From Candidatus Micrarchaeota archaeon (GTDB taxonomy: Archaea > Micrarchaeota > Micrarchaeia > Norongarragalinales > Norongarragalinaceae): DNA of 64,000 nt. The stretch spans positions 96,001 to 160,000 of the forward strand of contig JACQQD010000008.1 in assembly GCA_016207165.1 (NCBI GenBank). Reading direction: 5' to 3'. Below the pieces are notes generated by a model. It was not told where the DNA came from, did not search any database, and was given only the letters and a program-made list of their open reading frames with translations. The position numbers and the translations under genes are program-made. Shown here in pieces: positions 10,501 to 64,000 of this stretch (position 1 is the first letter of the stretch; every line of letters begins with the position of its first letter).

Positions 10501-13500
10501 TGCCAACTCATCAAAGACCAGGAGCAATTCCAGGATTTGGCGACTTTTTCGGTGAACTACGACGCCGAAGAACTGGCGAAACTCGGTGACTTCAACCCCG
10601 AGGGATTGTTCTACAAGAATACGGGCCATTACCGGTACTTTGCCGTAATCAACAACGAGGAAAACCCCATTGAATTAAGCAAAATCTCCGGCGACGGCGC
10701 GGGACTGGTTTCATGCCAAATCCTTGACTCCAGCGGCCAGGTTTTGGCCGGGTTGCAGGTGGGCCACCGCATCAACCCCGGCGACGTGCGCATCGTGAAA
10801 TGCACGTCGGTTAAACCGGGGGCGGGGTCCATGATTTTGGACTTTTCCGGCGCCGCCTTTGCCAGGACCAAGACCGTGCACGTGGAAGTTTTCCAGCCTG
10901 ACTCGTCCGTCTCCAAATTGTATCAAGCGTCCCCCATCGGCCAAGTCTTTCCCTTCTTCTCGCCCAAGGACTCGTCGCTTGCCGAGAAAGCCAAGGTCTT
11001 GCAGCAAGCCGGTTCTGAAAAGTTGGAGTTCGCCGAGCAACAACCGCTGTTGGGCCAGGCGTCACCCACTCCAACTTCCATTCCCTCCCCTTCCCCAGCG
11101 CCCCAGACAGACGAAGAGAAAAAGAAACAAAAGGAAGAATTGGCTGCCGCCATCCAGAACGTCCGCGACTTTAGGTTCTGCAAGTCGTACTTCTGCACCT
11201 TCAGCCGGGGCCAGGAAGCCCTGTACTCGTTTGCCGACGCGTTCCAGAAAATCGTGAAACAAAAAACCGATGGCGAAGGTGGAGCGCCCACCATTCAGTC
11301 GCTTTCCAAGTTCTGTGACTCGCTTCAAGGCCTCTCCACGTACCGCAAATCCATGGTGCTCCAGTTGGCCAACGTTCAGTTGACCGGCGACGAGTCCTCC
11401 AGCGCCGTTTCGTCCCTTCGCAACGAAATCCAGGCGCAAGTCTTCGGCGGCGACGTGTCCACCGTGGAAATCAAGGCATCGGATGGAAGCGACGTTTTGT
11501 TCAAAGGCTGCGGAATCTACCAAGTCGAAGCCGTATTGAACCCCATGTGCGGCTCCGGGGCCGCCACTCCGGAGGCTTGGAAGAAATCCATGCGCGTGGA
11601 GTTCCGCGTCAACAAAATCGTTTCCTGTGAAGAGAATTTGGCCAACGCCGCACTGCTTACAGCTCAGGATGACGGCGGCATGTCGGCGTACACCGGCAAC
11701 CAACTCGGCCACGGCGTGGTCAACGCCATCCGCTCCGCCTTCTCGCGAAAAACCTTTTCCGCTTTGGCGGCCATTCCCCAAGCCGCGTTCAACGACAAGT
11801 CCGAAAGCCGGCTGAAAGACGTGTTGGAAAGCGTGGGCCGCGTGCGGCAAGGCGTACTCGGCCAATACGGCGTGGAGACGAATGAGAAAGACGAGGCTAC
11901 AGTCAAAGCGCTTTACCACGCGCTTTACAACGTGAACGTGCAAGAAAAGAAAGTCAAGTTGTGTCCCCGCCTTGGAAGCGGCTTGGCGTACACGGCGTGC
12001 CCCGCGAAACCCTACGAGGACGCAGGATTCTGCTGGCGCACCGGTTTTGGCGCTTACTCCACCATTCTAGGCACGTCGGTGGCCTTGTTTGCCGCGCAAA
12101 CCGCGTACGTGGCCAGCGGCGCAGGCGGCGCCGTGGCGCCTCTGGCTTGGTCGCGCGCCATTGCCAGCAATTACCGCCTCATTTCCGCGTACTCGGGTTG
12201 CTTGGCTGGCGCTGGGGCGGAAGTCTTCCAAGGACGCTCGGCCGCCTCATGCCGCGCGCTGGATGTCTGCACGGGGTCTGTGTTGTCTGGCATCGTGGAA
12301 ACCGGCATGCCGTTCTTCGGAAATTGGCGGCTTTTGAGGCCCCAAATCCAGGCCGCACAGGCCTCATCCCAGCTGTCGGCTGGGTCATCCGCCGTGGCGT
12401 CCTTCTTCCTGGAAGGATTGCTGGGCGCCGGAGTTTTGGCTGGACTGGAGGAAGCCGCTGGCTTGCAGGAGGCGCCGCCGGTGCCGGCCATGCCTGTGAC
12501 GTTCATCGTCCGCCAATTTGCTTCGCCAACAGCGTTGGAGCGGGAACTGGGTGCCACGCGCCGGTTCGTCTTCAACATGGCGCCGTATGCCCAAGTGCGT
12601 GGCTCGCCGGCGCACCGCCGCGCGCAAGTGGAACTTTTGAACCGGCAACTCGAAGCACAAGGCATCTACAACCGGCGCGCGTCGGCCGACGCCATCCGTG
12701 CGTTGTACGATGCAGGCGGTGGCGACGTACGTGGCGCGTTCCAGAACAGCCGATTGGTTCGCGCCCTGGCGGCCATGGATGACGGGCAAGTCAACCATTT
12801 GCGTGATTTGCTTGAGGCAGGGGGTCCGGGTCCAGTCCAGGAGCAGGAGATTCTCAATTACTTGGCAGAGTCATTCATCGACAGCAACCCGCAGAACGCG
12901 GTGTACACCCGAAACCAGATCATCCAAGGTCTGGGTTTGACTACGCCGGATGCCACCGGACGTCATGCGCGGCTCGCAGAGTTCATTCGAGATCTTCCGT
13001 TTTCCTCTCAGCACAATTTGTTCACGCGTCCAGGACTGAATTCGTACTTTACGAGAACTCAGTTGTCCAGTGAAGCCAGTCTACGCACTGCACTGGCGGG
13101 CAACGACGCCCGACTTTTCGGCCGTGACGCACCTTTTGCAAGGCAATTGTTGACTGAATTGACGTCGGAGGGTTCCGATGCGTTGCTTCCGTTGCCCCGT
13201 TCCGCTCGCGCGTCTCCTTGGTTTTTTGGCGTTCGCCCAATTGATCTCATGGATTTGGAGTCGCGCATTCCATTCCACGATCCGGCGGCACCAACCAACC
13301 GGTTCACTGCCGTGCAGTACAACACGTTTTTGAACGCATTGGGTGTGCCTCCGGGAGCGGCGCCAAGGGACGTGGCTACATCCATTTACACGGAGTTCCA
13401 GCGAGGCCGCATTCAATTGACCCAAATTGATCAAGCGCTGGCCGCTGCTGGCCAGGATCCGCTACCGAACGGCTTTGGCGGTCTTCGTTCACTACTTCAC

Positions 13501-14403
13501 CGCGACCTGCGGACGCTTCAAGGTCCCTCGTTCCAAGGCCTAGACGACGGCGTCGAACGCTTCCGGCGGCTCTTCCAGATGCACCAAGTCAACGACATTA
13601 CTGGCGCCCACACTTCAATCCGCCCCACTCAGTTCGCCGATCTGACGCCCGACGAACTCAAGGCGGCAAGGCAATTGTTGGAGGCCGAACGCCACATGCG
13701 CATCTTCCGCGGCGTGTCGTTCGTCACCGCTTTCCTAACCAGCTTTTTGTTCAACACGGATTTCCGGCCGGTGCAAGTGGAAGTGGATGCCGGTCGCGAC
13801 GGCCACGTCATTGCCTTGCACGCCGAAGACGGAAAATACACGGCGGAAAGCATTTGCGTGAAAGGCATCGCGGGTTCCACCAGCTTGGATTGCAAGCCCC
13901 CGGCATCCAACGTGCTGTCGCCGCAACAGCTTTGCGGTTCTTCCCCGTTGTGCATGCGTCTCTTGAAGTGGTCCAACGGCAAGGTGACGTCGTACGCGTT
14001 GGTGGTCGGCTTTAATGATGCCGCTCCAACTGATCCCGAGTACTTGAATTCCTTGTTCATTCCCAAAGAAAAGCCGGTGAACAAACCCTACATGACGTCG
14101 GCCAGAGTCCAGTTTGACCCCATTTCTGCCGCCGGCTTTTCCCAGTATCAGGCGGACGTGACTGACCCCAAGACGGCCACCCGCACCGCCCAAATCGAGG
14201 TGGCAAAAGCCATCATTTCCGACATGAACGACCAAAATTCCAGGGCCGCGTTCCCGGCGGACAAGCGTGACGCCGTCAAGAAACTCGCACAGGACGCCAT
14301 CAACGCCTTCAAGCTAGAGCACGACACCACGGGTTCAGCGCTTCTGGCCAAAGCCCAGCAAGCCGAGACCGCGCTTCGCGCCGGCACCACGGAGGGACGC
14401 TGA
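4573..14403 (+). CDS. giant membrane-anchored surface protein (3276 aa) with carboxypeptidase-regulatory/Ig-like repeats
   Basis: N-terminal TM; repeated V.V.D..G.pv.gA.V....G..T...G motifs; cupredoxin-like segment at ~6520-6760; Cys pairs; Gly/Ala-rich hydrophobic block at ~12040-12520. Confidence 0.9.
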   Translation: MVFDSFLDFADEHGLPFRSWAEALEEKGIPSFVLLLIPILVLGAAAFVLLSQAPSTGTVKIYAQSQDGQVLEGVSVSLVGPNGFKKEVATNAGGLAAFSDVPAGTIRVQAFSSQVVLKEPAFDVVVKAGQVATGTVFSEVSTRQSVVLTVDVRNAAEATIRVFDSKDGLVDMASGVTSNPFAVAPENTYRVVAESDGFLPAEQDVTVARDAVFVELILQEKDKPTQSQVHVNVFQQGLEEVPVENASVRIVSGDQVLAVRESSQDGSIVPVGVPLGANVTVLVSKEGFAEGVRNFNASRLEEVVVVELQKGVAATAGVTIRVRDSAGNPVFSPIVRLFEKGLLKEDVFASDGVAQFDVSSLSDLSAEVYKSGFLPKRVESLQRDNAVVLERASANNSGRVRVLVLDRNGLEVSGAAVQLLSEGQKPLGIPPRLSGTDGEQVFDDVPLGLAVAQAVLGPRVAQSSPVLVVPLNQSNETRATVQFEPVAVDVPVRVTDKFSSSPIRGAKVVVADGSCTTAADGACLLKSLESDDAVLSATANGFESFESAAFSVYPGMQVVPVELVSASVARDVKLSFDGVFDSAGRKVNFLDPVTSYEARYTIFQPNVSFSKAEAFISIQGGAVLLGGQSQKARVTKGGQNDFQEQFASQEVAITPEGLFPATVDVPAGGQVVFSNEDNATHVLAFDDGQSLSLNPGDKRSLAFNAVGSFGFKSLRSETLSGFVTVTEQAVFEVDDASSVLFEYPSFNGSKQLTVRFKTSREGDVVLSHRSAFFTPVEALRDPLEGVKQSGSLSIRFQGTCAENLCVQHYFEFGGRTHRELELPLGEPAELVFNVVGLEKPGEIRLDASPGLVLLSGRTETSSLQIRSNESSTIRIPAGRSEVRIQFEARRLAEDASIGFAVASDNAVLFEGDAFLHVFAKTQPALVVSVRPSKVLALEQSAVTFSVKDGFGEPVSDALVVLGDAEANPSSQVGQYVVESLQPESLQPVSFEVRKEGFKVFRGSLSVEAPDFVLEVSPSLVSLSVDSREKQSAPVQVTNLLGDALRLAVSVNVESGGELTDVDVSTSSLRLKGHESGSFDVLASLKEEVMQVARRSGALTEDVRGIVRIRSTAKGFSDAQEVRFQVQATQSQQSLDDVWLLSPDSLSYSLEPPRTKAESQEVTVSNNGPYPLVFNVEQTLGGLSVQPASLVIPSNQEDVFTVRASTPNELNCFSDDVQRQGAMTVYASFQGITSKKTAQINVDVLTSSLVCAPPNGYRVTLPVDARMMFQSVVKTKVNPDGSTAVLLPGGQLMWFESGASVTPVEAQVPPSTGFMLDRSLVQPLPEGGWTVRFPVQVVLSIPDDADRQPFGGGQTIITIENAQIILPPGVQSALPQLTRQASNEVVIPPLSPVTFRRVPFNYDAYANLLPADSVEVHLPADAVLDLPAGTVERKLPKQASTYDYLSSRQSTENLYNIKAIQLPGGERLAFGDQAAILINPSSLQNNPSQVRLPADAALFVSRHRVAQVENRDVSEAFTLTMPVPYSLTVQGEPVPFQTEGGLWGLKVNEKATVEASWKPSVTKTSSQNVVRVVRENSLTYLSGASARIPVDPASLAKCSFSYEHEQSVSFLIPQGASLSKKAGRYEVVLPRCDETSKLTFHVSDSALGTADVLETPAIRKITFPDSAEVLGDLSASEEKQVTVKGTIEFVACLKDEQGKDVTETLKTMRVGFNEKSLVSVPERAILGLSKDQREMDFEVLTPVTLKPEGVTSTSLGSTKKMTMERQGRPVTFVGPPDYDRTGIVMEPGSELLFVPVCQKGTGRLDITATAEDVVVREKDKTEKAPLEVTFSNKNFKKSESRELVLINSGTQAVNLDGVSSEADASLDQRYRTYLTSILRTDTDHAFLQSPGVFGQKQKLRLEGRAPSEEPRQHVFVVKLELPDDMVIQNQCIKSEFDGVAMNGAYVFSLTDLNGDAISESQNHRMPVIVRFDAKAEDCQLIKDQEQFQDLATFSVNYDAEELAKLGDFNPEGLFYKNTGHYRYFAVINNEENPIELSKISGDGAGLVSCQILDSSGQVLAGLQVGHRINPGDVRIVKCTSVKPGAGSMILDFSGAAFARTKTVHVEVFQPDSSVSKLYQASPIGQVFPFFSPKDSSLAEKAKVLQQAGSEKLEFAEQQPLLGQASPTPTSIPSPSPAPQTDEEKKKQKEELAAAIQNVRDFRFCKSYFCTFSRGQEALYSFADAFQKIVKQKTDGEGGAPTIQSLSKFCDSLQGLSTYRKSMVLQLANVQLTGDESSSAVSSLRNEIQAQVFGGDVSTVEIKASDGSDVLFKGCGIYQVEAVLNPMCGSGAATPEAWKKSMRVEFRVNKIVSCEENLANAALLTAQDDGGMSAYTGNQLGHGVVNAIRSAFSRKTFSALAAIPQAAFNDKSESRLKDVLESVGRVRQGVLGQYGVETNEKDEATVKALYHALYNVNVQEKKVKLCPRLGSGLAYTACPAKPYEDAGFCWRTGFGAYSTILGTSVALFAAQTAYVASGAGGAVAPLAWSRAIASNYRLISAYSGCLAGAGAEVFQGRSAASCRALDVCTGSVLSGIVETGMPFFGNWRLLRPQIQAAQASSQLSAGSSAVASFFLEGLLGAGVLAGLEEAAGLQEAPPVPAMPVTFIVRQFASPTALERELGATRRFVFNMAPYAQVRGSPAHRRAQVELLNRQLEAQGIYNRRASADAIRALYDAGGGDVRGAFQNSRLVRALAAMDDGQVNHLRDLLEAGGPGPVQEQEILNYLAESFIDSNPQNAVYTRNQIIQGLGLTTPDATGRHARLAEFIRDLPFSSQHNLFTRPGLNSYFTRTQLSSEASLRTALAGNDARLFGRDAPFARQLLTELTSEGSDALLPLPRSARASPWFFGVRPIDLMDLESRIPFHDPAAPTNRFTAVQYNTFLNALGVPPGAAPRDVATSIYTEFQRGRIQLTQIDQALAAAGQDPLPNGFGGLRSLLHRDLRTLQGPSFQGLDDGVERFRRLFQMHQVNDITGAHTSIRPTQFADLTPDELKAARQLLEAERHMRIFRGVSFVTAFLTSFLFNTDFRPVQVEVDAGRDGHVIALHAEDGKYTAESICVKGIAGSTSLDCKPPASNVLSPQQLCGSSPLCMRLLKWSNGKVTSYALVVGFNDAAPTDPEYLNSLFIPKEKPVNKPYMTSARVQFDPISAAGFSQYQADVTDPKTATRTAQIEVAKAIISDMNDQNSRAAFPADKRDAVKKLAQDAINAFKLEHDTTGSALLAKAQQAETALRAGTTEGR

Positions 14404-16631: not shown

Positions 16632-17084
16632 TTGGCCTCTCTTTTGACTTCCTTGAAAAAAGTCGTTTCCGCGTCCAAGAACGATCCGGTTCTGCGCCAG
16701 CGCCTCATCGCGCAAGCCATGTTGTTGGGCCAACTCAAGTACATCAAAAACAAGGTCTCGGCTCCGGCCAACGCGTGGCACGACGCGGACGCCTTCGAGA
16801 AATTCATGTTTTCCGTTTTGAAGCCTTCCCGATTTGCCAAAGGCTGGACCCAGCGCATTCTGCACTCGTTTGTTTTGTCCATGGTCTTGGCGCACGGCGA
16901 CTCCAAGAAACTGCGGGCCAAAGCCGGCGCATTCTTGCAGAAGTTTGACAAGCGGTACCACAAGCTCTCCGCGTTTTTCGCGAAATCCCCAGGGTTCTTC
17001 GCCGCGTACCTTTCGGGGTTGAAGTTCCAGAAAGACGTTGTGACGGTTGGGTTGCTGCGGTGCCTCGCGACGCCGCGTCATTGA
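16632..17084 (+). CDS. hypothetical basic protein (150 aa), target gene of the TA cassettes
   Basis: ORF follows the 532-aa gene. Its 3' end recurs twice downstream with mostly synonymous or conservative changes, which supports coding status. Confidence 0.8.
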   Translation: MASLLTSLKKVVSASKNDPVLRQRLIAQAMLLGQLKYIKNKVSAPANAWHDADAFEKFMFSVLKPSRFAKGWTQRILHSFVLSMVLAHGDSKKLRAKAGAFLQKFDKRYHKLSAFFAKSPGFFAAYLSGLKFQKDVVTVGLLRCLATPRH

Positions 17085-17092
17085 CTCTTTGG

Positions 17093-17614
17093 CTATTCGT
17101 CTTTCAGGTGCTTTCGGCAAAGGTATTCCAATACACCGTCTTGCCAGCCCCGCGAATCAATCATTCTTAAAATCGCGTCATTGCCTTGGTTTTTTGACCA
17201 CGTGCCTTGCTTGACCAATTCCACGATCACGGCCGCACTAATCACGATGCGGATGCCCTCGGCTTGGGCCAAGCCGTCCAGTCTGTAGCCGGCTTCCACG
17301 TCATCGCATACCAGCAGTGGAATTTTTTCCCGAATGCACAGTGTGAATGCGCTTGCTTCGCCCACGTCCACAAGTCCCGTCACCGACGGCAAAACTCGGA
17401 CGGGGGCCGCATCCATTTTTCCCGACTTGATTAAGGCGAGGATTTTTTTGGCTGCTTGACCGACTCGGTCGTCAAAACCAGCCAATTCCTTGAGCTCGTC
17501 AACCACGGCCCTTGCAATCTTCCAGGAGACGATGGAAAACGAGGGTGTCAGAGCGCCAGCAAGTTCCAGGGAAACCAGGGCCGAAGTGTCCCCCGCCGCT
17601 GTTTTTAGTGCCAT
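17093..17614 (-). CDS. PIN-domain toxin (DUF3368/VapC-like)
   Basis: DTSAL...GEASA...LLVCDD acidic PIN motifs. Confidence 0.75.
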   Translation of the reverse strand: MALKTAAGDTSALVSLELAGALTPSFSIVSWKIARAVVDELKELAGFDDRVGQAAKKILALIKSGKMDAAPVRVLPSVTGLVDVGEASAFTLCIREKIPLLVCDDVEAGYRLDGLAQAEGIRIVISAAVIVELVKQGTWSKNQGNDAILRMIDSRGWQDGVLEYLCRKHLKDE

Positions 17615-17620
17615 GCCGGT

Positions 17621-17932
17621 TTATCCCAAGCCTTGTTCAAACGACTTTTTGGCCGTGGAAACGAAAAAGGCGACTTTACGAGCTTCCTCGTATCCCAGCA
17701 CTCGCACCAAGTCGTCAAAGAGGATTTGGCCTTCCGCAAATTTTTTCGCAACGATTTTCTTCATTTCGTTCAGCGACTGCTCCCGCGCGTAATATTCTTC
17801 GACGGCTTTCCGTACGATGGCCGAACGAACCTGCCGTTTGCCTTTGGCCAATATCTCGAGTTTCTTCTCCGTTTCAGGCTCCACGCGAACGTGAATGACG
17901 GATTCATGCGCCACGGCAACCCACCTCCACAT
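17621..17932 (-). CDS. RHH/CopG-type antitoxin
   Basis: VIHVRVEPETEKKLEILAK...RSAIVRKAVEEY. Lies upstream of the PIN gene. Exact start uncertain. Confidence 0.75.
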   Translation of the reverse strand: MWRWVAVAHESVIHVRVEPETEKKLEILAKGKRQVRSAIVRKAVEEYYAREQSLNEMKKIVAKKFAEGQILFDDLVRVLGYEEARKVAFFVSTAKKSFEQGLG

Positions 17933-17935
17933 CCA

Positions 17936-17956
17936 ATGTAATACTTTGTATCACAT
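17936..17956. promoter_or_regulatory. palindromic operator of TA operon
   Basis: ATGTAATAC-TTT-GTATCACAT (8 of 9 paired), directly upstream of the antitoxin. Confidence 0.55.
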
Positions 17957-18017
17957 ATTAATGTTTCGGCGAATTGTCCATCCGAAAAAGGGCTGACAAG
18001 CCACGGCTGGCTTGCCT

Positions 18018-18121
18018 CGTTTTTCGCCAAGTCCCCGGAGTTTTTCGCCGCGTACTTGACGGGGTTGAAGTTCAAGAAAGACGCCGTCACGGCCGGGTTG
18101 CTGCGGTGCGTGGCCCGTTGA
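18018..18121 (+). repeat. second copy of the 3' end of gene 16632..17084
   Basis: Translates FFAKSPEFFAAYLTGLKFKKDAVTAGLLRCVAR*, versus FFAKSPGFFAAYLSGLKFQKDVVTVGLLRCLATPRH* in the gene. Confidence 0.92.
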
Positions 18122-18251
18122 TTTCCGTCGGCGTCAAGTACCTGTTGGCAATTGCTTTTCGGTTGCTTTGCAGAGGCTTGGAAAACGGCTTAGTCTTTTC
18201 TTCGATCTGTTTTTGCCGTGGTTGCACTGCCAACGCGGTTTGTTTCTTTCC

Positions 18252-18554
18252 CTACTTTCCTTTGAGTAGCCGGGCGAGCGTTTTTTCCTCCTCGTCGTCC
18301 TCTCCGTAAAGCGCTTCGTCAACGCCCGTGTTTCTGAGGGCTTCCAGGACTTGGCGCGTGGAGACGTTGAGGCTCTCCGCAATTTTTCGAATCGAGTATC
18401 CTTTTTTCCGGAGGTCAGCCACGGTTTCATCCAGGAGCGCCTTGAGGAGGTATTGGCGGGCCACATCCACGCGTTTGAGGTAGTTTTGCTTGGCTTTGGC
18501 GTCCAGCACGTCCACGGCTTCCTTGGGCAAGCCCAAGTGAATGTATTTTGTCAT
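18252..18554 (-). CDS. RHH+HTH antitoxin-like protein (~100 aa)
   Basis: Likely start MTKYIHLGLPKE with an ATGA overlap on the PIN stop. YSIRKIAESLNVSTRQV HTH. Confidence 0.75.
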   Translation of the reverse strand: MTKYIHLGLPKEAVDVLDAKAKQNYLKRVDVARQYLLKALLDETVADLRKKGYSIRKIAESLNVSTRQVLEALRNTGVDEALYGEDDEEEKTLARLLKGK

Positions 18555-19027
18555 GATTTGATTCCCTCCAAGTTCTTCAACGCGGTTTCGACTTTTTTTG
18601 TCCTCGGGTACGTGACGGAAAGTTTTTCCAGCCACGCAACCGCCGTCCGTCGTTCCACCACATCTTTTTTCGCCAGAAATTCGATGAATGCCGGCGTGGA
18701 AAGAACGGCGATGTGCCGATTTCTTGCCGCCGCCATCAAAAGCCCGTCGTCGGTGACCAGAACGCATTCCCGTTTGCGTTGCGTGCACGTTTCCAGGAGG
18801 CTTGCATCGACGGGCGAGAGGTTGCGAAACGCGGAATCCGTCTTGGCGGCTTTGCTTTCAAGGATGGCCACGCATTCCGCCATCCTGACGCTTTTGATTT
18901 CGTCTTTCAGGTTGTGTCGCGCCTCGTCCAATACCGCCTGGATGCTGGCGGGGCGGACGATTCCCAGTGCCTGGACGTCAATTTCGGCCATGAACGTGAG
19001 GAACGTTGCATCCGCAACGTACAACAT
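18551..19027 (-). CDS. PIN-domain toxin
   Basis: YVADATFL...LSPVDASLL...LVTDDGLL. Confidence 0.8.
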   Translation of the reverse strand: MLYVADATFLTFMAEIDVQALGIVRPASIQAVLDEARHNLKDEIKSVRMAECVAILESKAAKTDSAFRNLSPVDASLLETCTQRKRECVLVTDDGLLMAAARNRHIAVLSTPAFIEFLAKKDVVERRTAVAWLEKLSVTYPRTKKVETALKNLEGIKS

Positions 19028-19035
19028 GGCATTTT

Positions 19036-19050
19036 ATTACAATTTGTAAT
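19036..19050. promoter_or_regulatory. perfect palindrome, putative TA operator
   Basis: ATTACAA-T-TTGTAAT, 8 bp upstream of the PIN start. Confidence 0.55.
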
Positions 19051-19097
19051 TCTTAACCTTTTTGGTTTCCGGTCCTATTACTCCGTTGCGGATTCTT

Positions 19098-19205
19098 TTG
19101 TTCGCCAAGTCCCCGGAGTTCTTCGCCGCGTACCTTTCGGGATTGAAGTTCCAGAAGGACACCGTCACAACCGGGCTTCTGCGTTGCTTGGCTGTGGCCC
19201 GATAG
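19098..19205 (+). repeat. third copy of the 3' end of gene 16632..17084
   Basis: Translates LFAKSPEFFAAYLSGLKFQKDTVTTGLLRCLAVAR*. Confidence 0.92.
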
Positions 19206-19298: not shown

Positions 19299-20735
19299 AT
19301 GGCTTTCAGGGGTCTTTCCCGGCTTCACTGGGTCGTCTTGGCCATTGTTTTCGTTGCTGGCGCCTTATGGTATCTTTCTTCCACTTCTTCCGCTCCGGTC
19401 CGCGATTTAGGCGGTTCTGCCTCTCCAACCCCTTTGGCTGTTTCCGACCAGACGCTTTCCGGAACCCCAACGCGCATTTCGTATGAGGGTTCCACGGTTT
19501 CGCTTGAACGACACGTTTCCGAGGACGGCAAGACGCATACGTCGGTAGTTGAGAATTTGGGTGAGTCCACGGTGAGCGTGGGCATCATCACGGTTGTTCC
19601 CAAGTCGCTGGCTTCCTCGGCTTCGCAACTGGGGCTTTCAAAAGATGTCGACGTTCTGGAGGACGACCCCATCGTTCTTCGCCTCGTTGACTTGGGTTCC
19701 GGTCAGAACGCGGCTCACAGCATTGTTTTGAAGTCAACGGCTGGACGTGACCGGGGCGTGTACCACATTTTTGTTTTGAATGCTAAGATGTGGTTGAACC
19801 AGTACACGGAGCAATTCGCGGAATTGGTGCAATTGCTGAAGACCTTGCCGGACAACGTTTCCAACGATGAGGCGAACCAGGTTTCGGATGCCTTCAGCCG
19901 TATTCTGAACGGAGACGGTGATCCCGCAGCCCGCATTGTTTCTGCGAAAGAGTACTTGGCGTCCAAGTCCACCGGCGCTGTCACGTTTGCGGTGGACGAG
20001 GACCAGCCGTTCGGCGACGTCCAAATGCAATTGTCTATTGACAACCCCGTTTCCTTGTATGCTTTGCCTTTGTCCAATGAGTTCACCTCGGTGCTGGGTT
20101 TGGGTACGCACTTGGGCGTCCGCCAGGGTTATGCTCACGTGCAAGGCCAAGATTCCGCTTTCGGCGGTCTTGAACCTTCCTATTTGCAGGACTACGTCAA
20201 GTTGGTTCAGACTAAGGACGGCGGTTATGCGTTGTTGGCGGACTTGCAGGCTCCGGCGCGCCAATCCCTGCCGGAATTCTCGGTTTCCGGACGCGCGGAA
20301 CTGTTCTTCTCTGGCCGGCCCAACACGGCTATTTTGGTTCCCATTCGCGTGGACTTGCTGCCGGCCGAGCACTTCGGCGACTCCAGCCTAGACACGCCAT
20401 TTGACTTGATTGCGTACGATTGCGGCGACTTGCAAAACGAGTTGGGCATTGCGGAACACGCGCTTTTGACCAAGGCCGCGCAGGTGGACGAAGTCAACGA
20501 CCAACTGCTTTCAGGAGACCAAGTCACGCTGGTTAGTTCCTTGCGCGTGAACTTGGAGCGTTTTGACGGCTTTCCCGAGGAATGCCAAGGCTTGCCGGAG
20601 ATTTTTGAAGGAATTCCGTTCAAGGCCAGAAAAATCAACGTGGTGACTTACTCTTACAAGGAGGGCGAGGCCACGTGGGAGTTGGTGGAAGAAGAACCAC
20701 CTACTTTTCGGGAAATCGAGGTTTCGGATTCATGA
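19299..20735 (+). CDS. membrane-anchored surface protein (478 aa), paralog of 21814..23574
   Basis: N-terminal TM; PVRDLG, VVPKSLASSASQL and VLEDDPIV are shared with the paralog. Confidence 0.85.
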   Translation: MAFRGLSRLHWVVLAIVFVAGALWYLSSTSSAPVRDLGGSASPTPLAVSDQTLSGTPTRISYEGSTVSLERHVSEDGKTHTSVVENLGESTVSVGIITVVPKSLASSASQLGLSKDVDVLEDDPIVLRLVDLGSGQNAAHSIVLKSTAGRDRGVYHIFVLNAKMWLNQYTEQFAELVQLLKTLPDNVSNDEANQVSDAFSRILNGDGDPAARIVSAKEYLASKSTGAVTFAVDEDQPFGDVQMQLSIDNPVSLYALPLSNEFTSVLGLGTHLGVRQGYAHVQGQDSAFGGLEPSYLQDYVKLVQTKDGGYALLADLQAPARQSLPEFSVSGRAELFFSGRPNTAILVPIRVDLLPAEHFGDSSLDTPFDLIAYDCGDLQNELGIAEHALLTKAAQVDEVNDQLLSGDQVTLVSSLRVNLERFDGFPEECQGLPEIFEGIPFKARKINVVTYSYKEGEATWELVEEEPPTFREIEVSDS

Positions 20736-21813: not shown

Positions 21814-23574
21814 ATGTCGGACGCCTCTTTTTCGGTTGCATCGGACGGCGAAAAACCGTCGTTGCCGTTAATTGGTTTGGCGGTGTTGGTGGTGTTGGCT
21901 GGCGCCGTAATCTTTTTGTCGCAAAATTCCACCACCCCGTTTCGTGACTTGGGTTCTCCGGCGCCCCCGCAAGCCGCTTCGGTTTCTGGCGTTGTTTCTT
22001 CCACGGAGTCTTTTTCGCTTTCCGGTGCCCAAGTCCGAGTCGATTCCGAGGTCTTCGTGGTTGGCGAACGCATGACGGAAAAAGTGGCTCTTGAAAGTTC
22101 CAGTGCTTGGACGGGTTACTTCGTGGAAGTGATTCCCAAAGAGTTTGCGGCTTCGGCTTCAAAATTGGATTTGAATGGATATTCGGACGTCCAAGTTCTG
22201 GAGGATGACCCCGTGATTGCCGTTCCCATCGTGCTTTCGCCTGGTAGCCCGGTTTCGTTGTCGAAAACCGGTTCCAGCACCAATCTCCGCTTGCTTCACT
22301 TCCTGGTTTCGGACGACGCGCTGTCGTCGGATGCGTCCGAGCGGAAAGAACAGCTCAGGCAAATTGCGGCGGCGTTTGGCGCGTTGGACTTCGAGCAGTT
22401 GCTGGTGTTCACCGGAAGTGACATTGAGGCGTTTCAAGGGGATGTTTCGGGTTTGTTGAGCGATTCGTCGAAGACTTTTCCGGAGCGCGTGGCCGCGTTG
22501 AAAGGGAAAGTCTCGGCGCAGACGTCGTCGGAGAACGTGGAAGCTGCTTTGAAGAGAAGCGAGAACAAGATTTACTTGGAACTCAATCCGTATGCGCCTT
22601 CTTCGACGTACCGGTTGCCCGTGGTTTCGACGCGAGGCTCTGTCGAATTGACCCGCAATGCGTTTGCGCCTTTGTTGAAAGTGTCTGGGTTGGACGTGCC
22701 CCGGCTTGAGACGAACGTCGGTTTTTCCCAAAGCGTTGAGACCGATCCGTGGCTTGTCGAGGTGGCCGTCGACGCGTCTCGGGTTGAAACTTCAGGGGGC
22801 AAACTGGTTCTGGACGGCGAGCCATTGATCAACGCATTGGGGTCTTTGGATGTGCAATTCACCCAGGAATTGGACGTCAAGCAAAGCATTCCGTTTTTGG
22901 TTGAGTTCACGCAGCCGCCGGTTGCCGATTACTTGGCGTTTTATGTTCCCGCCATTTATTACGGGTCCACTGACGTGCCCTTCTTGATGAGAAACGACGC
23001 ATCCATGGATTTCCAAGTCAGCGTGTGCGGTCAAGAACAAATTTTGTCTGCTGAAACTTGGCAAGTTCTTTACGTGTCTCCGGAAAAAATCGACGACTGC
23101 CAAATCACGCAGGGAACGGAAACCCTGGTCTTGGGCGGAAAGACGGGGTTGACGGCGATGCCGGTTCGCGTGGATTTGTCCAAAGAGGATTATTCGCCGG
23201 ATGTCAAGGCGGCTTTGTCTGGGAATGGATACTTGTTCCACCGGTATGCCGTGCCGCTTTCCGAGTCGCCGTCGGATTACTGCTCCAACCGCTTGTGTAC
23301 CTGCGATGCGGCCGTTGAATCGACCAAGAATTTGGTTCTTCGGGCAACGGAATTGAACCGCCTTTACCAGGCAACGCATGCTTCGACTTTGGTGCTTTTG
23401 GATTCGACGGAAGCCGGTTGTGAATACGAATTTTCGGAGGATGGGCGACTTTCGCTTGAACCCGGTCTAAATGTCGTCCAAGCCACTTTTTCCGAATCCA
23501 ATGCGCACGACCAGCCATTCACCGTCGTGGTTTCAACTGAAAAAATAAAGGGCGGGTTCTTCGGGGCGGACTAA
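21814..23574 (+). CDS. membrane-anchored surface protein (586 aa)
   Basis: N-terminal TM; PFRDLG, VIPKEFAASASKL, VLEDDPVI; C-terminal CSNRLCTCD. Confidence 0.85.
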   Translation: MSDASFSVASDGEKPSLPLIGLAVLVVLAGAVIFLSQNSTTPFRDLGSPAPPQAASVSGVVSSTESFSLSGAQVRVDSEVFVVGERMTEKVALESSSAWTGYFVEVIPKEFAASASKLDLNGYSDVQVLEDDPVIAVPIVLSPGSPVSLSKTGSSTNLRLLHFLVSDDALSSDASERKEQLRQIAAAFGALDFEQLLVFTGSDIEAFQGDVSGLLSDSSKTFPERVAALKGKVSAQTSSENVEAALKRSENKIYLELNPYAPSSTYRLPVVSTRGSVELTRNAFAPLLKVSGLDVPRLETNVGFSQSVETDPWLVEVAVDASRVETSGGKLVLDGEPLINALGSLDVQFTQELDVKQSIPFLVEFTQPPVADYLAFYVPAIYYGSTDVPFLMRNDASMDFQVSVCGQEQILSAETWQVLYVSPEKIDDCQITQGTETLVLGGKTGLTAMPVRVDLSKEDYSPDVKAALSGNGYLFHRYAVPLSESPSDYCSNRLCTCDAAVESTKNLVLRATELNRLYQATHASTLVLLDSTEAGCEYEFSEDGRLSLEPGLNVVQATFSESNAHDQPFTVVVSTEKIKGGFFGAD

Positions 23575-23577
23575 TCC

Positions 23578-26500
23578 ATGCGTTTTTTTGTCTTCATTGT
23601 TTTCCTGGTGTTGGCGGGTTTGGCTTCATCCGCCGCCTTTGACTTGGCCAACCAACCCAAAGTCAGCGTATACATCGGCTCGGATGCGTCCGTTCCCCAT
23701 GCTTCCGGCGGGGCTTCGTACGCGTTTCGTTTGGCCGGCCCCGCCGTGGTCGGACCCAAGGGGATTGAGGCCAAAATCCAGGCCACGCGTTCCGGCCAAG
23801 CCGAGTGTCCCGGTACAATCAAGGTCAACACGCAGGAGCAATACGCGTGCAACACGGTGTGCATTCGGTTGATTGGCTACCGGACGCAAGCCGCCATTGA
23901 TGCGGACAGCGCTTCCGGTCAACAACCTCTTTCCCAAGAGGACGCCATCGGCGAGCACGCTTTCATGCAAATAGGTTTGAAGTCATCGGATGGCTCGTGT
24001 AATGTCGCGCCGACGGCCGCGGATGTCCAGGCCCTCGCGCAATCGTCGTCGAAAATGACTCCTGAAGAGCAGGCCCGCGCAAGCCAATCCATTTCCGGCG
24101 GCTATCACCGCTTCCTGAAAGACGTTTCAATCGATGTGGCGTTGCTGGCTGGCATCCGCTTCAAGCGGGCGACGCCGCAATACTTGGAGCACCCCCGTGA
24201 ATTGACGGACTTGATGGCCAGCTTACACAAAGTGGAATACCTCGTCTTTCATGCCCCGACGTTTTTGGGCGTCCGCGATACCGTGGAACAATCCCAACTC
24301 GCGATTCGCGCGAATTCCGTGGAGTTGGCGTCAAGCGCCATTGCCTCCTGCGGCGCTCATCCCGCCTTTTTGGAGGAGTTTTCCGTGAATGGTTATGGGC
24401 CCAGTTCACTGTTTTCCGTTGGCCCCTCCGATGAATGGATTCGCTCGTCGTACAAGACGGCGGCTTCCTTGGATGAAGCCAAACAATTTCTTTCCTGCAT
24501 CGGGCAAATCAAGGGCGAAAAGGGGTACTTCTTTTTCGACCGGAAAATTGACCCCAAGACCATCACGCGCGCCTTGGAGGATCCAGGGTACACGTTTTTG
24601 ACGGAGTACGACAAGTCCCGCCGGCAGGAAGGCAACCTGGATGTGACGCAAGCGGACCGCGTGGTTTTCGCCTACGAATTTGGCAAGTACCTGTATACGC
24701 AGAAAGAGGACGCCGACGCCATCAACGTGCTTTCCGCCGCGATTCTGGAAGCCGAGCGGTTGCGCATTCCCAACGTGGTTCACCCTCAAAGCGGTTTGGG
24801 ACTCCAGAAAGACGCGTTTGACACCATCAACGCCGTTTTGGCGCGGCAGGGCCGGGAACCCATGGCGACGCTGGGCGGTTGCCTCAACGGCTTCTTGAAT
24901 CCGCTTATCATCCTAAAACCTCTTCAGTTGCTCAAGATAGGTGCCAAGACCGGCGCCGTCATGTCTGCGGGCGGCCGCGTCATCCACTTGGGCTTTGCTT
25001 TACAAGGCGGTCAGCAACTCATTGGCGCGGCCCAAACCGCGCAGGAGTCGGCTTTGGACTCCACCATTTCGGGTGTGTGCGGGACGGTCATGTTTTTTGG
25101 CGGCCTGAAAGCGGGTCTGACGCGAGCCCCCGCGGCGTCTACGGAAATGGTTCGAACGCCTGAGACAGGCAAATGGGTGTCGCGTCCGGTCATTGGAGGC
25201 TCCAAGGCGGCGTCGGCGCGTGCCTTGGTCTTGAACAAGGAATTGGCGGATACCCCGGTTGAGTTGGTTGTACAACGCTTCACCAAGTTTTCAAGCCAGC
25301 TTAAACCCGGTGAATCCGCTGGAGAGTTTTTTGTGCGGTTGACGGTGAAAGGCAAAGAATTGACTATTCGCGTCACGCCCGAAAACCATCGAGCCGTTTT
25401 GGCGGACGTGTTGCACATAAAGGCGACGCTGGCCATGGAAAAAGCAGACGCCGCCCAGTTTTCTCCCAGTTCCATCAAGGAGTTCCAGCAGGCGCTCTCG
25501 GAATTGTCGAAAGTGGATTCGGAGAAGGCATCATTCTACAACGAGTTCAATTTCCAGTTGAATGAACTGCTGAACGCCAAATCGAAGGAGGCCAAGCAGT
25601 CCATCCAGGAAAAACTCATCGGTTTGGTCTTCCAGCTATCCAAGCCTGAAAATAATCCCGCCAAGCAGCGCATCACGTTCTTGCAAGCGTTGCCTTCCGG
25701 CAAAGCCCAGACTCTGGATGGCTTGACCCCTGCCCAACCCCCTGGAACCGCTCAGCCCAGCGATCGCCGGACCCTCACGGAGCGCTTGCAAGCCGCGACG
25801 GAACTCTTCAAGAAGGCGAAAGAAAAGTTCGGCCGCAGCCTTTCGCGCGTGAAACAGTTCTTTTCGTTCAAGGACGGCCGGAGGATTGAAGTTCCGGAAG
25901 AGGCGTCCAGCCAAATCGCGGACGCCCACGTGGCGGCGTCGGCGACCGGCGAAGCCCAACAAGTCGTTGTTGAGGTTTTGGTGAACGGAAAGAAGCAGAA
26001 CATGCCGGTGTTTGTTCGCCCTGGCGGAAAATTTTTGTCGATTGAGGAAATCAAGCAAGTGGCCAAAGACGGGAAAACCACGATTGCGGGAGTAGTTCGA
26101 CTCGGGGAATTGGTCGTTTTTGATACCCGCCCCCAGAACCTGCGCTTTTTGCAAACTATTCGCCTCAATGACCTGCTTTCCGACTCCAGGCCCCTGCCTG
26201 CTCTTCGTGAATCGGTTACGGCGTTGGCGGATGCCGAAACCCTGTCAACTGATCCTTCAAGCGCCGGCAAGTCAACTCGTCCAGGTGACGCCGTCCAATT
26301 GCCTGAAACCCGCTGGAAGGATGCGTTGACGCGTCTGGGGTTAAGGCGAAATGGAAAATATGATGCCTACTACTTGGTTGAAGGTGCGGCGTTGCGGAAT
26401 GGGGTTCCCCTCCGTTTCGAAGTGACTGGATCCGACAACCACGTCGGTTTTCTGGTTTTGAAAATCATCCGGAACAAAATTCCGGAAAGCATTCGCGACG

Positions 26501-32000: not shown

Positions 32001-32213
32001 TATAGCAAGACCGGCAAATGAAACAAACCGCTTGGCGGTTTGTTGCATGCTGCAAGCCGTTATCGGCTTGCATCATTTCACGACGAATAGGCCGGTCTTG
32101 CTAGACAGCACAGCACAAATTGCTATGGCAATTTGTGTGGCCTTGCAAATCTTAGCGATTTGCAAGAAACCAAGACTATTGGCTTGGGAAACTTTCTTGG
32201 TTTGCTGTATTGA
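32001..32213. repeat. structured repeat copy A (inverted hairpin doublet plus two 57-nt double-hairpin inserts)
   Basis: 13-bp stem 32003-32015/32091-32103; second stem closing at 32195-32208; four internal hairpins; homologous to 42339-42435 and 54022-54074. Confidence 0.9.
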
Positions 32214-42338: not shown

Positions 42339-42435
42339 ATTACAGTAAACCACGAATGTTTCCCGACAAAATAGTCGTGGTTTACTGTCTAGCAAACTCC
42401 GCCTATTCGTCGTGAAATTTGCGGGGTTTGCTATA
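42339..42435. repeat. structured repeat copy B (intact inverted hairpin doublet)
   Basis: Perfect 14-bp stem 42342-42355/42375-42388, then 13-bp stem 42390-42402/42421-42433 (one T-G pair). Ends ~20 nt before the HMG-CoA synthase ATG. Confidence 0.9.
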
Positions 42436-54021: not shown

Positions 54022-54074
54022 TATAGCAATCCCCGACTATTTTGTCGGGTCACTTTCTTGGTTTGCTGTATTGA
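54022..54074. repeat. structured repeat copy C (internally deleted)
   Basis: Begins TATAGCAA; 16-bp exact match to copy B (54034-54049 vs reverse complement of 42362-42377); 23-bp exact match to copy A (54052-54074 vs 32191-32213). Confidence 0.85.
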
Positions 54075-63133: not shown

Positions 63134-63421
63134 TTAAGAGCCCGCGTGGTGCGCTTTTTCCCAGTGCTTTCCTAGGTATTCGAACATCTCGTGAAAGGTT
63201 TCCAGTTCCCGGCGAAACTGGGGGACGTACATTCGCGCGCTTTCGCGTGGGTCGCCTTCCAGTTTTTCGATTTTTTCACCGTGGTCTCGAATGTATCGTT
63301 TGAGTCTTTCTTCCAACTGCGGGTAGTCAACGGTGCCCTCGTCGCTCATGAGCCTGAATCCGATGTGTAGTTCCGGCTTTTTTTCCTTGACGTATTCCAG
63401 GAAACGTTTGATGTGACTCAC
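63134..63421 (-). CDS. hypothetical protein
   Basis: 95-aa ORF with a 4-bp overlap on the upstream GT2. Confidence 0.55.
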   Translation of the reverse strand: MSHIKRFLEYVKEKKPELHIGFRLMSDEGTVDYPQLEERLKRYIRDHGEKIEKLEGDPRESARMYVPQFRRELETFHEMFEYLGKHWEKAHHAGS

Positions 63422-64000
63422 CGCACGATGGCGTAGCGCTTCGTCTTTTTCCCCAAGAGGAAGTTGACGGTGGTGTGGCCCCAGTCCAACAACAACCCCA
63501 TCCAGCCTTCTTTTTGGAGGCGGCGGTTGGATGTGTACGCCGTGTATTGGTTCAAAAGAACGACTCGGCCGAACTTCGAGATGCGGAGGGACAAGTCTTG
63601 GTCTTCGGAGGCGTGCATTTGCTCGTCAAATCCATGCACTTTCCACAAGGTTTTTGCCCGGTAGAACACGCAGTTGCCGGCAATGACCGGTTTTCCGAAT
63701 GCGGTGGAAACGCGGACGATGGCGTTGAGCAACGTAAAGAACAGTTGCGTGTTCCAATCCGTCACGCTCGGCCGGATTTCGCAGCCCACGCTGACGACGT
63801 CGGGCTGCATGTCCAGGATTTCCAGGGCTTCCTCTACGAATTCTTTTTGGGGTTTCGTGTCCGCGTCGCAGAAAAGCAGGACGTCGCCGTTGGCTTTTTT
63901 CGCGCCGGCGTTGCGGCCCGCGGCGATGCTGGCGTTCTTCCAGTCTTTTCCGCGTTCGCGCACCACGTTCGCGTATTTTTTGGCGATGGCGCGTGTGGCG
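63418..64000 (-). CDS. GT2 family glycosyltransferase, 5'-partial
   Basis: GRNAGA, FCDAD, GFDE...ED.D, TSNRR. The frame appears to extend past the window end. Confidence 0.88.
   Translation of the reverse strand, partial: ATRAIAKKYANVVRERGKDWKNASIAAGRNAGAKKANGDVLLFCDADTKPQKEFVEEALEILDMQPDVVSVGCEIRPSVTDWNTQLFFTLLNAIVRVSTAFGKPVIAGNCVFYRAKTLWKVHGFDEQMHASEDQDLSLRISKFGRVVLLNQYTAYTSNRRLQKEGWMGLLLDWGHTTVNFLLGKKTKRYAIVR

What the first reader, a model, noticed from the sequence alone, without database searches (positions are those of the whole stretch)
16972..19205. Tandem ~1-kb TA cassettes, each bounded by a diverged in-frame copy of the host gene's 3' end
Seen: the last ~105 bp of gene 16632..17084 recur at 18018-18121 and 19098-19205, with periods of 1046 and 1078 bp. 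All three copies keep frame and stop codon (FAKSP[GE]FFAAYL[ST]GLKF[QK]KD.VT.GLLRC) and differ largely at synonymous or conservative sites. Between copies lies one complete PIN toxin/antitoxin operon on the opposite strand with its own palindromic operator. The two operons differ in sequence and have opposite gene order. No integrase or transposase was seen in the 64 kb. Known: integrative elements that target a gene's 3' end carry a replacement end and leave such duplicates. Inference: these are minimal circles (TA pair plus an orthologous gene tail from related strains) stacked by successive Campbell-type integration, either homology-driven or by a recombinase in trans. The result is an integron-like TA array that also swaps the target protein's C-terminus.
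Basis: partly seen in the sequence, partly recalled or inferred. Interest (0 to 1): 0.88.

Follow-up and report, generated by a model that had tools for sequence, protein, structure and literature searches.

The report
Stacked toxin-antitoxin cassettes at a gene end
Two small toxin-antitoxin cassettes sit one after the other at the end of a gene in a tiny groundwater archaeon, each apparently having brought its own spare copy of that gene's last 35 codons, which shows one way such selfish gene pairs can move without breaking their target.

Summary
The last ~105-120 nt of gene 16632-17084 recur at 18010-18121 and 19088-19205, at 82% and 73% identity. These are the only three copies in the 1.27-Mb genome. 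All three keep frame and stop codon, with dN/dS 0.10-0.22. Each interval holds one complete PIN-type toxin-antitoxin operon on the opposite strand. Contigs from three other samples of the same study confirm most junctions.

The repeats are not integron attC sites, and no recombinase lies in the window. Three Xer-like tyrosine recombinases and one serine recombinase lie elsewhere in the genome.

Best reading: integrase-less cassettes accreted in tandem by Campbell-type recombination at a 20-33-nt core at the left edge of the repeat. Each brought a replacement gene end, as e14 does at icd and as CIME accretion does in bacteria. Circles were not seen, and no recombinase is linked to the site.

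The same build recurs. A one-gene cassette follows a tRNA-synthetase tail in this genome. Two of 73 PIN loci scanned across this genome and its family are TA-only cassettes that duplicate a gene end, and sister genomes show the sites without them.

This is a new variant of a known kind, of moderate interest.

The parts
16632..17084 (+). Target gene, 150 aa, no known family. Conserved in related Micrarchaeota MAGs.
   Evidence: ORF. No Pfam or NCBIfam hit. Orthologs at 83% (P0003) and 36-39% identity, aligned to the C-terminus.
16964..17084 (+). Tail copy 1, the 3' end now in use. Inferred to have come with cassette 1.
17093..17614 (-). Toxin 1, a PIN-fold protein of 173 aa (precomputed PF11848).
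   Evidence: AlphaFold pLDDT 92.5. Foldseek top hits are PIN domains and VapC4, prob 1.00, TM 0.5-0.67. Four relatives at 45-63% identity; D9, E86, D104 and D105 are invariant.
17621..17932 (-). Antitoxin 1, a ribbon-helix-helix protein of 103 aa.
   Evidence: RHH_1 E 0.0029, below the cut-off. RelB-like and aCcr1 hits are also weak and below cut-off. The reading rests on weak hits plus position.
17937..17955 (.). Imperfect palindrome TGTAATAC-N3-GTATCACA just upstream of antitoxin 1. Operator-like (inferred).
17995..18016 (.). 9-bp hairpin followed by T-runs on both strands, at the left edge of copy 2. Possible terminator between the cassettes (inferred).
18010..18121 (+). Tail copy 2, a displaced in-frame end with a stop. 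Inferred to have come with cassette 2.
18023..18055 (+). Candidate recombination core in copy 2. It matches copy 3 at 32 of 33 nt, and the first 20 nt are identical.
   Evidence: These are the only 2 hits with up to 3 mismatches in 68 genomes of the order.
18252..18554 (-). Antitoxin 2, 100 aa, with an RHH-like N-terminus and an HTH.
   Evidence: HTH_7 E 1.4e-4. BrnA and VapB N-terminal hits are weak. Its residues 51-97 are predicted to cover the active-site face of toxin 2.
18551..19027 (-). Toxin 2, a divergent PIN protein of 158 aa, overlapping antitoxin 2 by 4 nt.
   Evidence: 28 relatives among 1.84 billion representatives. The family profile hits PIN structure 1o4w at E 3.9e-5. 5 of 26 members hit Pfam PIN. 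pLDDT 95.3. Foldseek hits are PIN domains, best E 2.6e-3.
19036..19050 (.). Perfect palindrome ATTACAA-T-TTGTAAT upstream of toxin 2. Operator-like (inferred).
19088..19205 (+). Tail copy 3, a displaced end. Inferred to be the original host tail because it runs on into the native intergenic region and the next gene (19299-20735).
   Evidence: The assignment rests on topology only.

Best explanation
The locus is a tandem pair of small, integrase-less integrative cassettes. Each is a VapBC-type (PIN) toxin-antitoxin operon with promoter-like sequence and a short palindrome upstream. They lie at the 3' end of a genus-level, uncharacterised 150-aa gene of a Micrarchaeota (DPANN) archaeon.

Each cassette entered as a circle by Campbell-type recombination at a short core at the left edge of the repeat (TTCGCCAAGTCCCCGGAGTT...). 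Each carried its own version of the last 35-37 codons. The gene therefore stays whole, and the previous tail is pushed downstream. On this reading copy 1 came with cassette 1, copy 2 came with cassette 2, and copy 3 is the original tail.

The recombinase is most likely a tyrosine recombinase acting in trans, since the genome has three. The TA pairs then act as addiction modules that resist loss.

Shown: the anatomy, selection on the tails, the PIN folds, a predicted toxin-antitoxin contact for cassette 2, and the absence of a recombinase in the cassettes and in the window.

Inferred: the circular intermediate, the crossover point, the order of events, and the identity of the recombinase.
For: 1. 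Three in-frame tails with dS 0.48-1.03 but dN/dS 0.10-0.22. They spent most of their divergence as working gene ends.
2. A sharp common left edge, with no significant similarity upstream (187, 192 and 1738 of 2000 shuffles reach the score). Similarity after the stop is only weak (20, 62 and 574 of 2000).
3. Copies 2 and 3, which flank cassette 2, share a perfect 20-nt stretch at that edge (32 of 33 nt).
4. The cassettes are clean. Apart from about 130 nt after copy 2, everything between the tails is TA operon plus promoter region.
5. Orthologous loci in four related MAGs (36-39% identity) have one tail and no TA.
6. The same genome has a 1.47-kb cassette holding one AAA_14/DUF4143 gene. It is flanked by a perfect 25-nt direct repeat inside a duplicated tRNA-synthetase tail and has no recombinase inside.
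7. A tRNA gene 3.8 kb beyond the window is followed by repeated tRNA-end remnants that bound small cassettes, one with a MazE/PIN_3 pair.
8. In a scan of 73 PF01850 loci across this genome and its family, 2 are TA-only units flanked by direct repeats that duplicate a gene end. L066 is 734 nt, at a PEPCK 3' end. L100 is 914 nt, at a GT2 5' end.
9. Sister genomes show those sites without the TA cassette. In L100 the displaced copy keeps the 'KLSVI' shared by the three orthologs, while the copy in use reads 'KISVI'.
10. Three tyrosine recombinases and one serine recombinase lie elsewhere in the genome.
11. The known precedents fit: e14 at icd with the icdC fragment (PMC13626634, passages read) and CIME/tandem accretion (PMC5704250, passages read). 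In Thaumarchaeota, 14 of 68 integrated elements sit in 3'-distal parts of protein genes, and arrays at one site are known (PMC6563490, passages read).
Against: - No circle junction and no variant with 0 or 1 cassette was seen. The four runs gave contigs only, no joints, and the same sequence with 0 differences.
- No recombinase is linked to this core. No repeats were found flanking the three recombinase genes.
- The core was not found in any of the other 67 genomes of the order, nor in viral contigs.
- Copy 1 differs from copy 2 at 5 of 33 core positions, so cassette 1 has no perfect core pair.
- The tRNA-synthetase locus also holds a 98-nt unit that is only a tail. This shows that elements here can decay to nothing, which favours the decay rival.
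- The tails do not tell which copy is the original. Against the 83% ortholog P0003 I count by eye 7 of 35 mismatches for copy 3, 7 of 35 plus one extra residue for copy 1, and 6 plus 2 gaps for copy 2 (alignment).
- Only 2 of 73 other PIN loci show the pattern.
Confidence: 0.5

Rival explanations
1. Decayed islands (CIME type). Each cassette is what is left of a larger element that brought its own integrase, integrated at the same gene end, and was then whittled down by deletion. The TA pair survived because losing it is harmful. Integration is the same as in the best explanation, but the cassettes were never minimal or mobile as such.
For: This is the standard three-step route described for bacterial tandems (PMC5704250, passages read). 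The 98-nt tail-only unit at the tRNA-synthetase locus shows that decay to almost nothing happens in this genome. The Fic tail remnant with an internal stop shows decay in the tRNA array. No free or circular form was found.
Against: No gene debris lies in either cassette. Four TA-only units in three genomes, plus a one-gene unit with a perfect 25-nt repeat, would each need clean and recent deletions. The displaced tails show no frameshift or stop.
Confidence: 0.25
2. Homology-driven Campbell insertion. DNA from related strains that already carried tail-TA-tail circularised by recombination between its repeats. It then entered through RadA-type homologous recombination within the tail, with no site-specific recombinase.
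For: The tails differ at the level of orthologs from sister species: 83% protein identity to P0003 over the whole gene. Cassette GC (0.524, 0.530) is close to the window's 0.564. The longest identical stretch between copies 2 and 3 is where a homologous crossover would be expected.
Against: Identity is only 73-84% over ~105 nt, and the longest shared perfect runs are 20-24 nt, read by eye from the sequences. This is a poor substrate. All copies share one left edge. The perfect 25-nt and the 29-34-nt repeats at the other loci look like att sites. This route also does not explain how the first tail-TA unit arose.
Confidence: 0.15
3. In-place duplication. The copies are remnants of tandem duplications of the gene or its end, into which TA pairs later inserted.
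For: Direct repeats in register with similar periods.
Against: dS of 0.48-1.03 with dN/dS of 0.10-0.22 cannot arise in dead copies. There is no similarity upstream of the shared left edge. The two cargos are unrelated.
Confidence: 0.04
4. Assembly artefact. A chimera of strains that differ in the gene tail.
For: This is a metagenome-assembled genome. The stretch 19032-19075 is bridged only by the probable source run among the records listed.
Against: Contigs of three other samples bridge the other junctions with 0 differences. The repeats share no run of 31 nt or more that could mislead a k = 31 graph, read by eye.
Confidence: 0.02

Closest known systems
e14 (and phage 21) at the E. coli icd gene, with the icdC fragment
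   Same: The element integrates inside the 3' end of a protein gene and supplies a replacement end. A displaced C-terminal fragment is left at the far side. The differences are mostly synonymous or conservative (PMC13626634, passages read; the phage 21 detail is recalled).
   Different: e14 is a 15-kb prophage with its own integrase, present as one element. Here there are two ~1-kb units with no recombinase, in an archaeon.
CIMEs and tandem accretion of ICEs/IMEs (ICESt1-type elements at fda in Streptococcus)
   Same: Integrase-less units that keep attL and attR, stacked at the end of one target gene with att copies between them (PMC5704250, passages read).
   Different: Those are bacterial, many kilobases long, tied to conjugation, and have short att repeats. 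Here the cargo is a TA pair only, and the repeat is a ~105-nt diverged coding tail.
Archaeal integrated elements in 3'-distal parts of protein genes (Thaumarchaeota)
   Same: Archaeal, targeting the 3' ends of protein genes. Arrays at one site are known (PMC6563490, passages read).
   Different: Those elements are proviruses, casposons or cryptic elements with recombinases and short repeats. I saw no TA-only unit in the passages read. Supplementary tables were not available.
Chromosomal integrons with TA cassettes (Vibrio; archaeal integrons)
   Same: Arrays of small cassettes. TA cassettes are common and carry their own promoters. TA systems make up 10.5% of the archaeal cassette proteins that received a functional prediction (PMC9668308, passages read).
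   Different: There are no attC hairpins, no integron integrase, and the recombination site is a coding gene tail.
tRNA-gene genomic islands (Islander-type; tycheposon arrays)
   Same: The island restores the split target, and a displaced fragment marks the far end (PMC4383910, abstract in the search listing). This genome has such an array at a tRNA. Tandem tycheposon arrays are recalled, not read.
   Different: The target here is a protein gene, and the units lack integrases.

Membership tests
Integron / CALIN | attC sites: imperfect palindromes that fold as single-strand hairpins | tested here: not met
   All 3 copies, on both strands, fold no better than shuffles (z +0.43 to +0.93; 127-168 of 200 shuffles fold at least as well).
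Integron / CALIN | Integron integrase (IntI) next to the array | tested here: not met
   No PF00589 match on contig C8; the 3 matches are on C1, C3 and C5. The two scanned scored 48.4 and 22 bits against the 265-bit cut-off of TIGR02249. The C5 paralog was not scanned.
Integrative element with replacement gene end (e14/icd type) | Direct repeats made of the target gene's end, with the gene kept whole and a displaced fragment | tested here: met
Integrative element with replacement gene end (e14/icd type) | The element encodes its own integrase | tested here: not met
   Each cassette holds only two genes. No recombinase lies in the window.
Integrative element with replacement gene end (e14/icd type) | Empty site in relatives | tested here: inconclusive
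   4 of 4 related loci lack cassettes, but they are only 36-39% identical. The 83% relative's DNA could not be fetched. The analogous loci L100 and L066 do have TA-free sites in sister genomes.
CIME / tandem accretion | Units flanked by att copies, lacking recombination and transfer genes, stacked at one target | tested here: met
CIME / tandem accretion | Excision by a related element's integrase acting on the flanking att sites | not testable with these tools
   Only contigs could be laid, and no joints were seen.
Type II toxin-antitoxin, VapBC-like | PIN-fold toxin with conserved acidic residues | tested here: met
   Toxin 1. Toxin 2. Pfam itself called neither.
Type II toxin-antitoxin, VapBC-like | Adjacent small DNA-binding antitoxin that binds the toxin | tested here: met
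   Weak RHH and HTH hits. For cassette 2, ipSAE is 0.88 against a best control of 0.11. That mark was reached by 58 of 80 solved complexes and 2 of 110 mismatched pairs. Runs agree in at least 97% of contacts, and partner pLDDT is at least 88. VapBC complexes are solved, so the pass may reflect likeness. Cassette 1 was not tested.
Type II toxin-antitoxin, VapBC-like | Toxicity, and its neutralisation by the antitoxin | not testable with these tools
   Needs expression assays.

The most novel reading that the evidence does not exclude
Micrarchaeota carry a class of minimal mobile TA cassettes of 0.7-1.1 kb. Each consists of only a TA operon, its promoter and a replacement copy of a host gene end. 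They move as circles through a recombinase supplied in trans and can stack at one gene end. This would be a concrete route by which 'naked' chromosomal TA pairs move between genomes without disrupting their targets.
Probability: 0.3. Interest if true: 0.8.

Novelty: new variant of a known kind. Interest (0 to 1): 0.55.

Why it matters
Chromosomal toxin-antitoxin pairs are treated as mobile, yet most sit in genomes with no visible vehicle.

Here, and at two further loci in related genomes where sister genomes show the site without the cassette, a TA pair is the sole cargo of a unit bounded by att-like repeats. The unit rebuilds the end of the gene it entered. If these units move as such, they give a testable mechanism for TA spread in DPANN archaea, which have small genomes, and a simple system for finding the recombinase. 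If they are remnants, they show that addiction modules are what survives island decay.

Either way, the target protein's C-terminus is exchanged with each event.

Tried and rejected
Searches and tests that led nowhere:
- tRNA or known RNA in the repeats: none in the window.
- attC-like folding: rejected.
- Function of the target gene: no Pfam, NCBIfam or Atlas lead.
- Close relatives of the locus: the first metagenome scan found none. The alignment-based scans found only orthologs at 36-39% identity.
- Toxin 1 relatives: only distant hits in 5 of 68 genomes of the order. Only the genome itself among 401 phylum genomes at E <= 1e-12. None in viral contigs.
- The window core was absent from viral contigs.
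- The single viral hit to the synthetase core lies in a phage structural gene encoding 'PQDGTVT'. I rejected it as chance.
- No direct repeats flank the three tyrosine recombinase genes, apart from one 23-nt pair at E 0.008 that I did not pursue.
- A search with the tRNA-synthetase tail across 68 genomes was not sensitive enough. Even this genome's own fragment was missed.

Reads: no joints, and no variant lacking a cassette. Parts of the stretch have no cover in runs X2-X4, and contig breaks coincide with adapter sequence, so they say nothing. A 4758-nt contig in X1 matches 17751-17852 at 83 of 102 nt. It is not in this genome's assembly and could not be followed.

In the 73-locus scan, 6 further repeat pairs of 14-19 nt (E 0.002-0.035) were dropped as chance. 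That scan used PF01850, which does not detect the window's own two toxins, so it undercounts.

Closed or unavailable: the look-up of encoding contigs (closed by its description, not called), the search of earlier findings, the listing of cluster members. Supplementary files were not consulted. The supplementary tables of PMC6563490 and PMC9668308 may list small TA-bearing elements.
Full report
ORGANISM AND SETTING. The window is contig C8:96001-160000 of a 1,268,999-base, 12-contig genome, 90% complete. Mevalonate-pathway genes and DUF2070 point to a DPANN archaeon. So does the title of the one related GTDB record, 'Candidatus Micrarchaeota archaeon'. The four runs that hold the stretch are groundwater metagenomes of one study.

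THE REPEAT. The repeat finder reports three copies of 105 nt at 16964, 18010 and 19088, at 82% and 73% identity to the first, with spacings of 1046 and 1078 nt. No further copy exists in the genome. Each copy is in frame and ends in a stop codon.

The first copy is the true 3' end of a 150-aa gene. A protein 83% identical (P0003) and four orthologs at 36-39% identity align with it to the C-terminus. Upstream of the shared left edge there is no similarity. After the stop codons there is only weak similarity.

Over 31 codons, dS is 0.48-1.03 while dN/dS is 0.10-0.22. Synonymous changes are in significant excess (p = 9e-4, 1.4e-5, 9e-3). Dead copies could not diverge this way, so each tail was a working gene end for most of its history. 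The copies do not fold as hairpins and match no RNA family or tRNA.

THE CARGO. Cassette 1 (17085-18009) holds a ribbon-helix-helix protein (17621-17932; weak RHH hits) followed by a 173-aa protein (17093-17614). The latter's model (pLDDT 92.5) matches PIN domains and VapC4 at probability 1.00.

Cassette 2 (18122-19087) has the reverse order. A 158-aa protein (18551-19027) comes first. Its family profile hits the PIN structure 1o4w (E 3.9e-5), and 5 of its 26 aligned members hit Pfam PIN. A 100-aa RHH-plus-HTH protein follows (18252-18554).

A complex prediction for cassette 2 scored 0.88 against a best control of 0.11. That mark was reached by 58 of 80 solved complexes and 2 of 110 mismatched pairs. 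The runs agree in at least 97% of contacts, and partner pLDDT is at least 88. The antitoxin's C-terminal half lies over the toxin's acidic residues. VapBC complexes are solved, so this shows likeness, not proof.

The two toxins are unrelated in sequence. None of the four proteins has a paralog in the genome. Short palindromes precede each operon.

NOT AN ARTEFACT. Contigs from three other samples bridge all junctions but one, with no differences. The same call showed no joints. So there is no evidence for circles or for variants with fewer cassettes. Contigs drop rare forms, so this is not evidence against them.

HOW IT AROSE. The common left edge, the absence of gene-body remnants and the selected tails fit insertion of circles that carry a replacement tail. 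Cassette 2 is flanked by copies that share a perfect 20-nt stretch at that edge (32 of 33 nt). This is where an att core or a homologous crossover would lie. Copy 1 differs from copy 2 at 5 of these 33 positions.

The window has no recombinase. The genome has three Xer-like tyrosine recombinases: C3:309-1529, C5:32405-33694 and C1:152995-154113. The two scanned against NCBIfam score below the XerA and IntI cut-offs. There is also one serine recombinase. I could not link any of them to this site.

THE SAME BUILD ELSEWHERE.
(a) On contig C2, a class II tRNA-synthetase gene ends in a tail that recurs 1.56 kb downstream with a 6-nt deletion. Between the two lies a single AAA_14/DUF4143 gene, flanked by a perfect 25-nt direct repeat. 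A 98-nt unit that is only a tail precedes it.
(b) At C8:163778-163885, 3.8 kb past the window, an intron-bearing tRNA is followed by repeated tRNA-end remnants. These bound small cassettes with a MazE/PIN_3 pair and a Fic gene.
(c) PF01850 PIN genes number 10, 17 and 17 in the three genomes of this genus and 22 in G009, against 0-5 in the other 22 genomes of the family.
(d) Of 73 such loci scanned, two are TA-only units flanked by repeats that duplicate a coding end. L066 is 734 nt with a 29-nt repeat, covering the last 10 codons of PEPCK with two synonymous differences. L100 is 914 nt with a 34-nt repeat, covering the first 12 codons of a GT2 gene.
(e) The GT2 site is empty in this very genome: the gene starts at C8:160125, and the neighbouring gene lies 27 nt away. 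It is also empty in G009. G001 lacks the TA cassette but carries about 1 kb of unrelated sequence between the same two genes.
(f) The displaced copy in L100 keeps 'KLSVI' as in the three orthologs, while the copy in use reads 'KISVI'. This is the pattern expected if the cassette brings the new end.
(g) The PEPCK site has no TA in the 86% ortholog locus, which has a single tail copy.

WHAT IS KNOWN. Replacement of a gene's 3' end by an integrating element, with a displaced fragment, is classical: e14 at icd with icdC (PMC13626634, passages read). Stacking of elements at one att site, and integrase-less units that keep their att sites (CIMEs), are well described in bacteria (PMC5704250, passages read). 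Archaeal elements in the 3'-distal parts of protein genes, and arrays at one site, are described for Thaumarchaeota (PMC6563490, passages read). Archaeal integrons exist and often carry TA cassettes, but the word Micrarchaeota occurs 0 times in that paper's main text (PMC9668308, term search and passages). This locus fails both integron tests.

My literature searches turned up no description of TA-only units with replacement gene ends, in archaea or bacteria. The library is partial and supplements were closed.

VERDICT. The integron analogy and the minimal circles are unproven. I rank it a new variant of a known kind. What is distinctive is the reduction to a TA pair plus a long coding tail, its recurrence in this archaeal family, and the tandem stacking. 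Confidence in trans-mobilised mini-cassettes is 0.5, in decay remnants 0.25, in homology-driven entry 0.15, and under 0.1 in the remaining rivals together.

Noticed in passing
window 42340-42435; partial copies at 32075-32116, 32167-32209 and 54025-54070: A ~96-nt double-hairpin repeat family, giving about 30 BLAST rows across the genome (many places match on both strands), with stem changes that keep pairing. One copy folds at -44.4 kcal/mol, z -8.3. There is no Rfam match. Copies bound two ~6.8-kb stretches (C2:27070/33849 and C9:46793/53700), and one lies beside a PIN gene at C8:84249-84575.
   Followed up: partly
G000:C2:16017-17639 (L027 2018-3640): A class II tRNA-synthetase tail is duplicated around a 1.47-kb AAA_14/DUF4143 cassette flanked by a perfect 25-nt direct repeat. 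A 98-nt tail-only unit lies before it.
   Followed up: yes
G000:C8:163778-168046 (L026 3778-8046), 3.8 kb beyond the window end: An intron-bearing tRNA is followed by repeated tRNA-end remnants bounding small cassettes: a MazE/PIN_3 pair, a Fic gene, and a Fic tail remnant with an internal stop. The same downstream sequence follows tRNA-Gly(TCC) on C12:131064-131139.
   Followed up: partly
window 63418-64000 (G000:C8:159421-160125): This GT2 gene is the empty-site counterpart of a TA-cassette insertion at the gene's 5' end in sister genome G002 (L100). G001 has a different ~1-kb insert at the same spot.
   Followed up: yes
G000:C3:309-1529, C5:32405-33694, C1:152995-154113, C1:163156-163587: Three Xer-like tyrosine recombinases. 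Two are paralogs with a C-terminal zinc ribbon near contig ends. One lies beside a HicAB-like pair (read by eye) and virus-like genes. There is also one serine recombinase. Of the two tyrosine recombinases scanned against NCBIfam, neither reaches the XerA cut-off; the C5 paralog was not scanned.
   Followed up: partly
window 17751-17852: A 4758-nt contig in run X1, at nearly the same depth as this genome (22.5 vs 23.1), matches the RHH antitoxin gene at 83 of 102 nt. It is absent from the genome assembly. It may be a related cassette in unbinned DNA or in a co-resident relative.
   Followed up: no
window 4573-14403, 21814-23574 and 23578-29160: The target gene sits among very large ORFs (3276, 586 and 1860 aa). 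The flanking ORFs that were scanned have no Pfam family; the large ones were not scanned. N-terminal hydrophobic segments suggest surface proteins, read by eye.
   Followed up: no
G000 contig ends: Exact overlaps of 116-141 nt link C4 to C3, C3 to C1 and C1 to C5, so these contigs could probably be joined.
   Followed up: no
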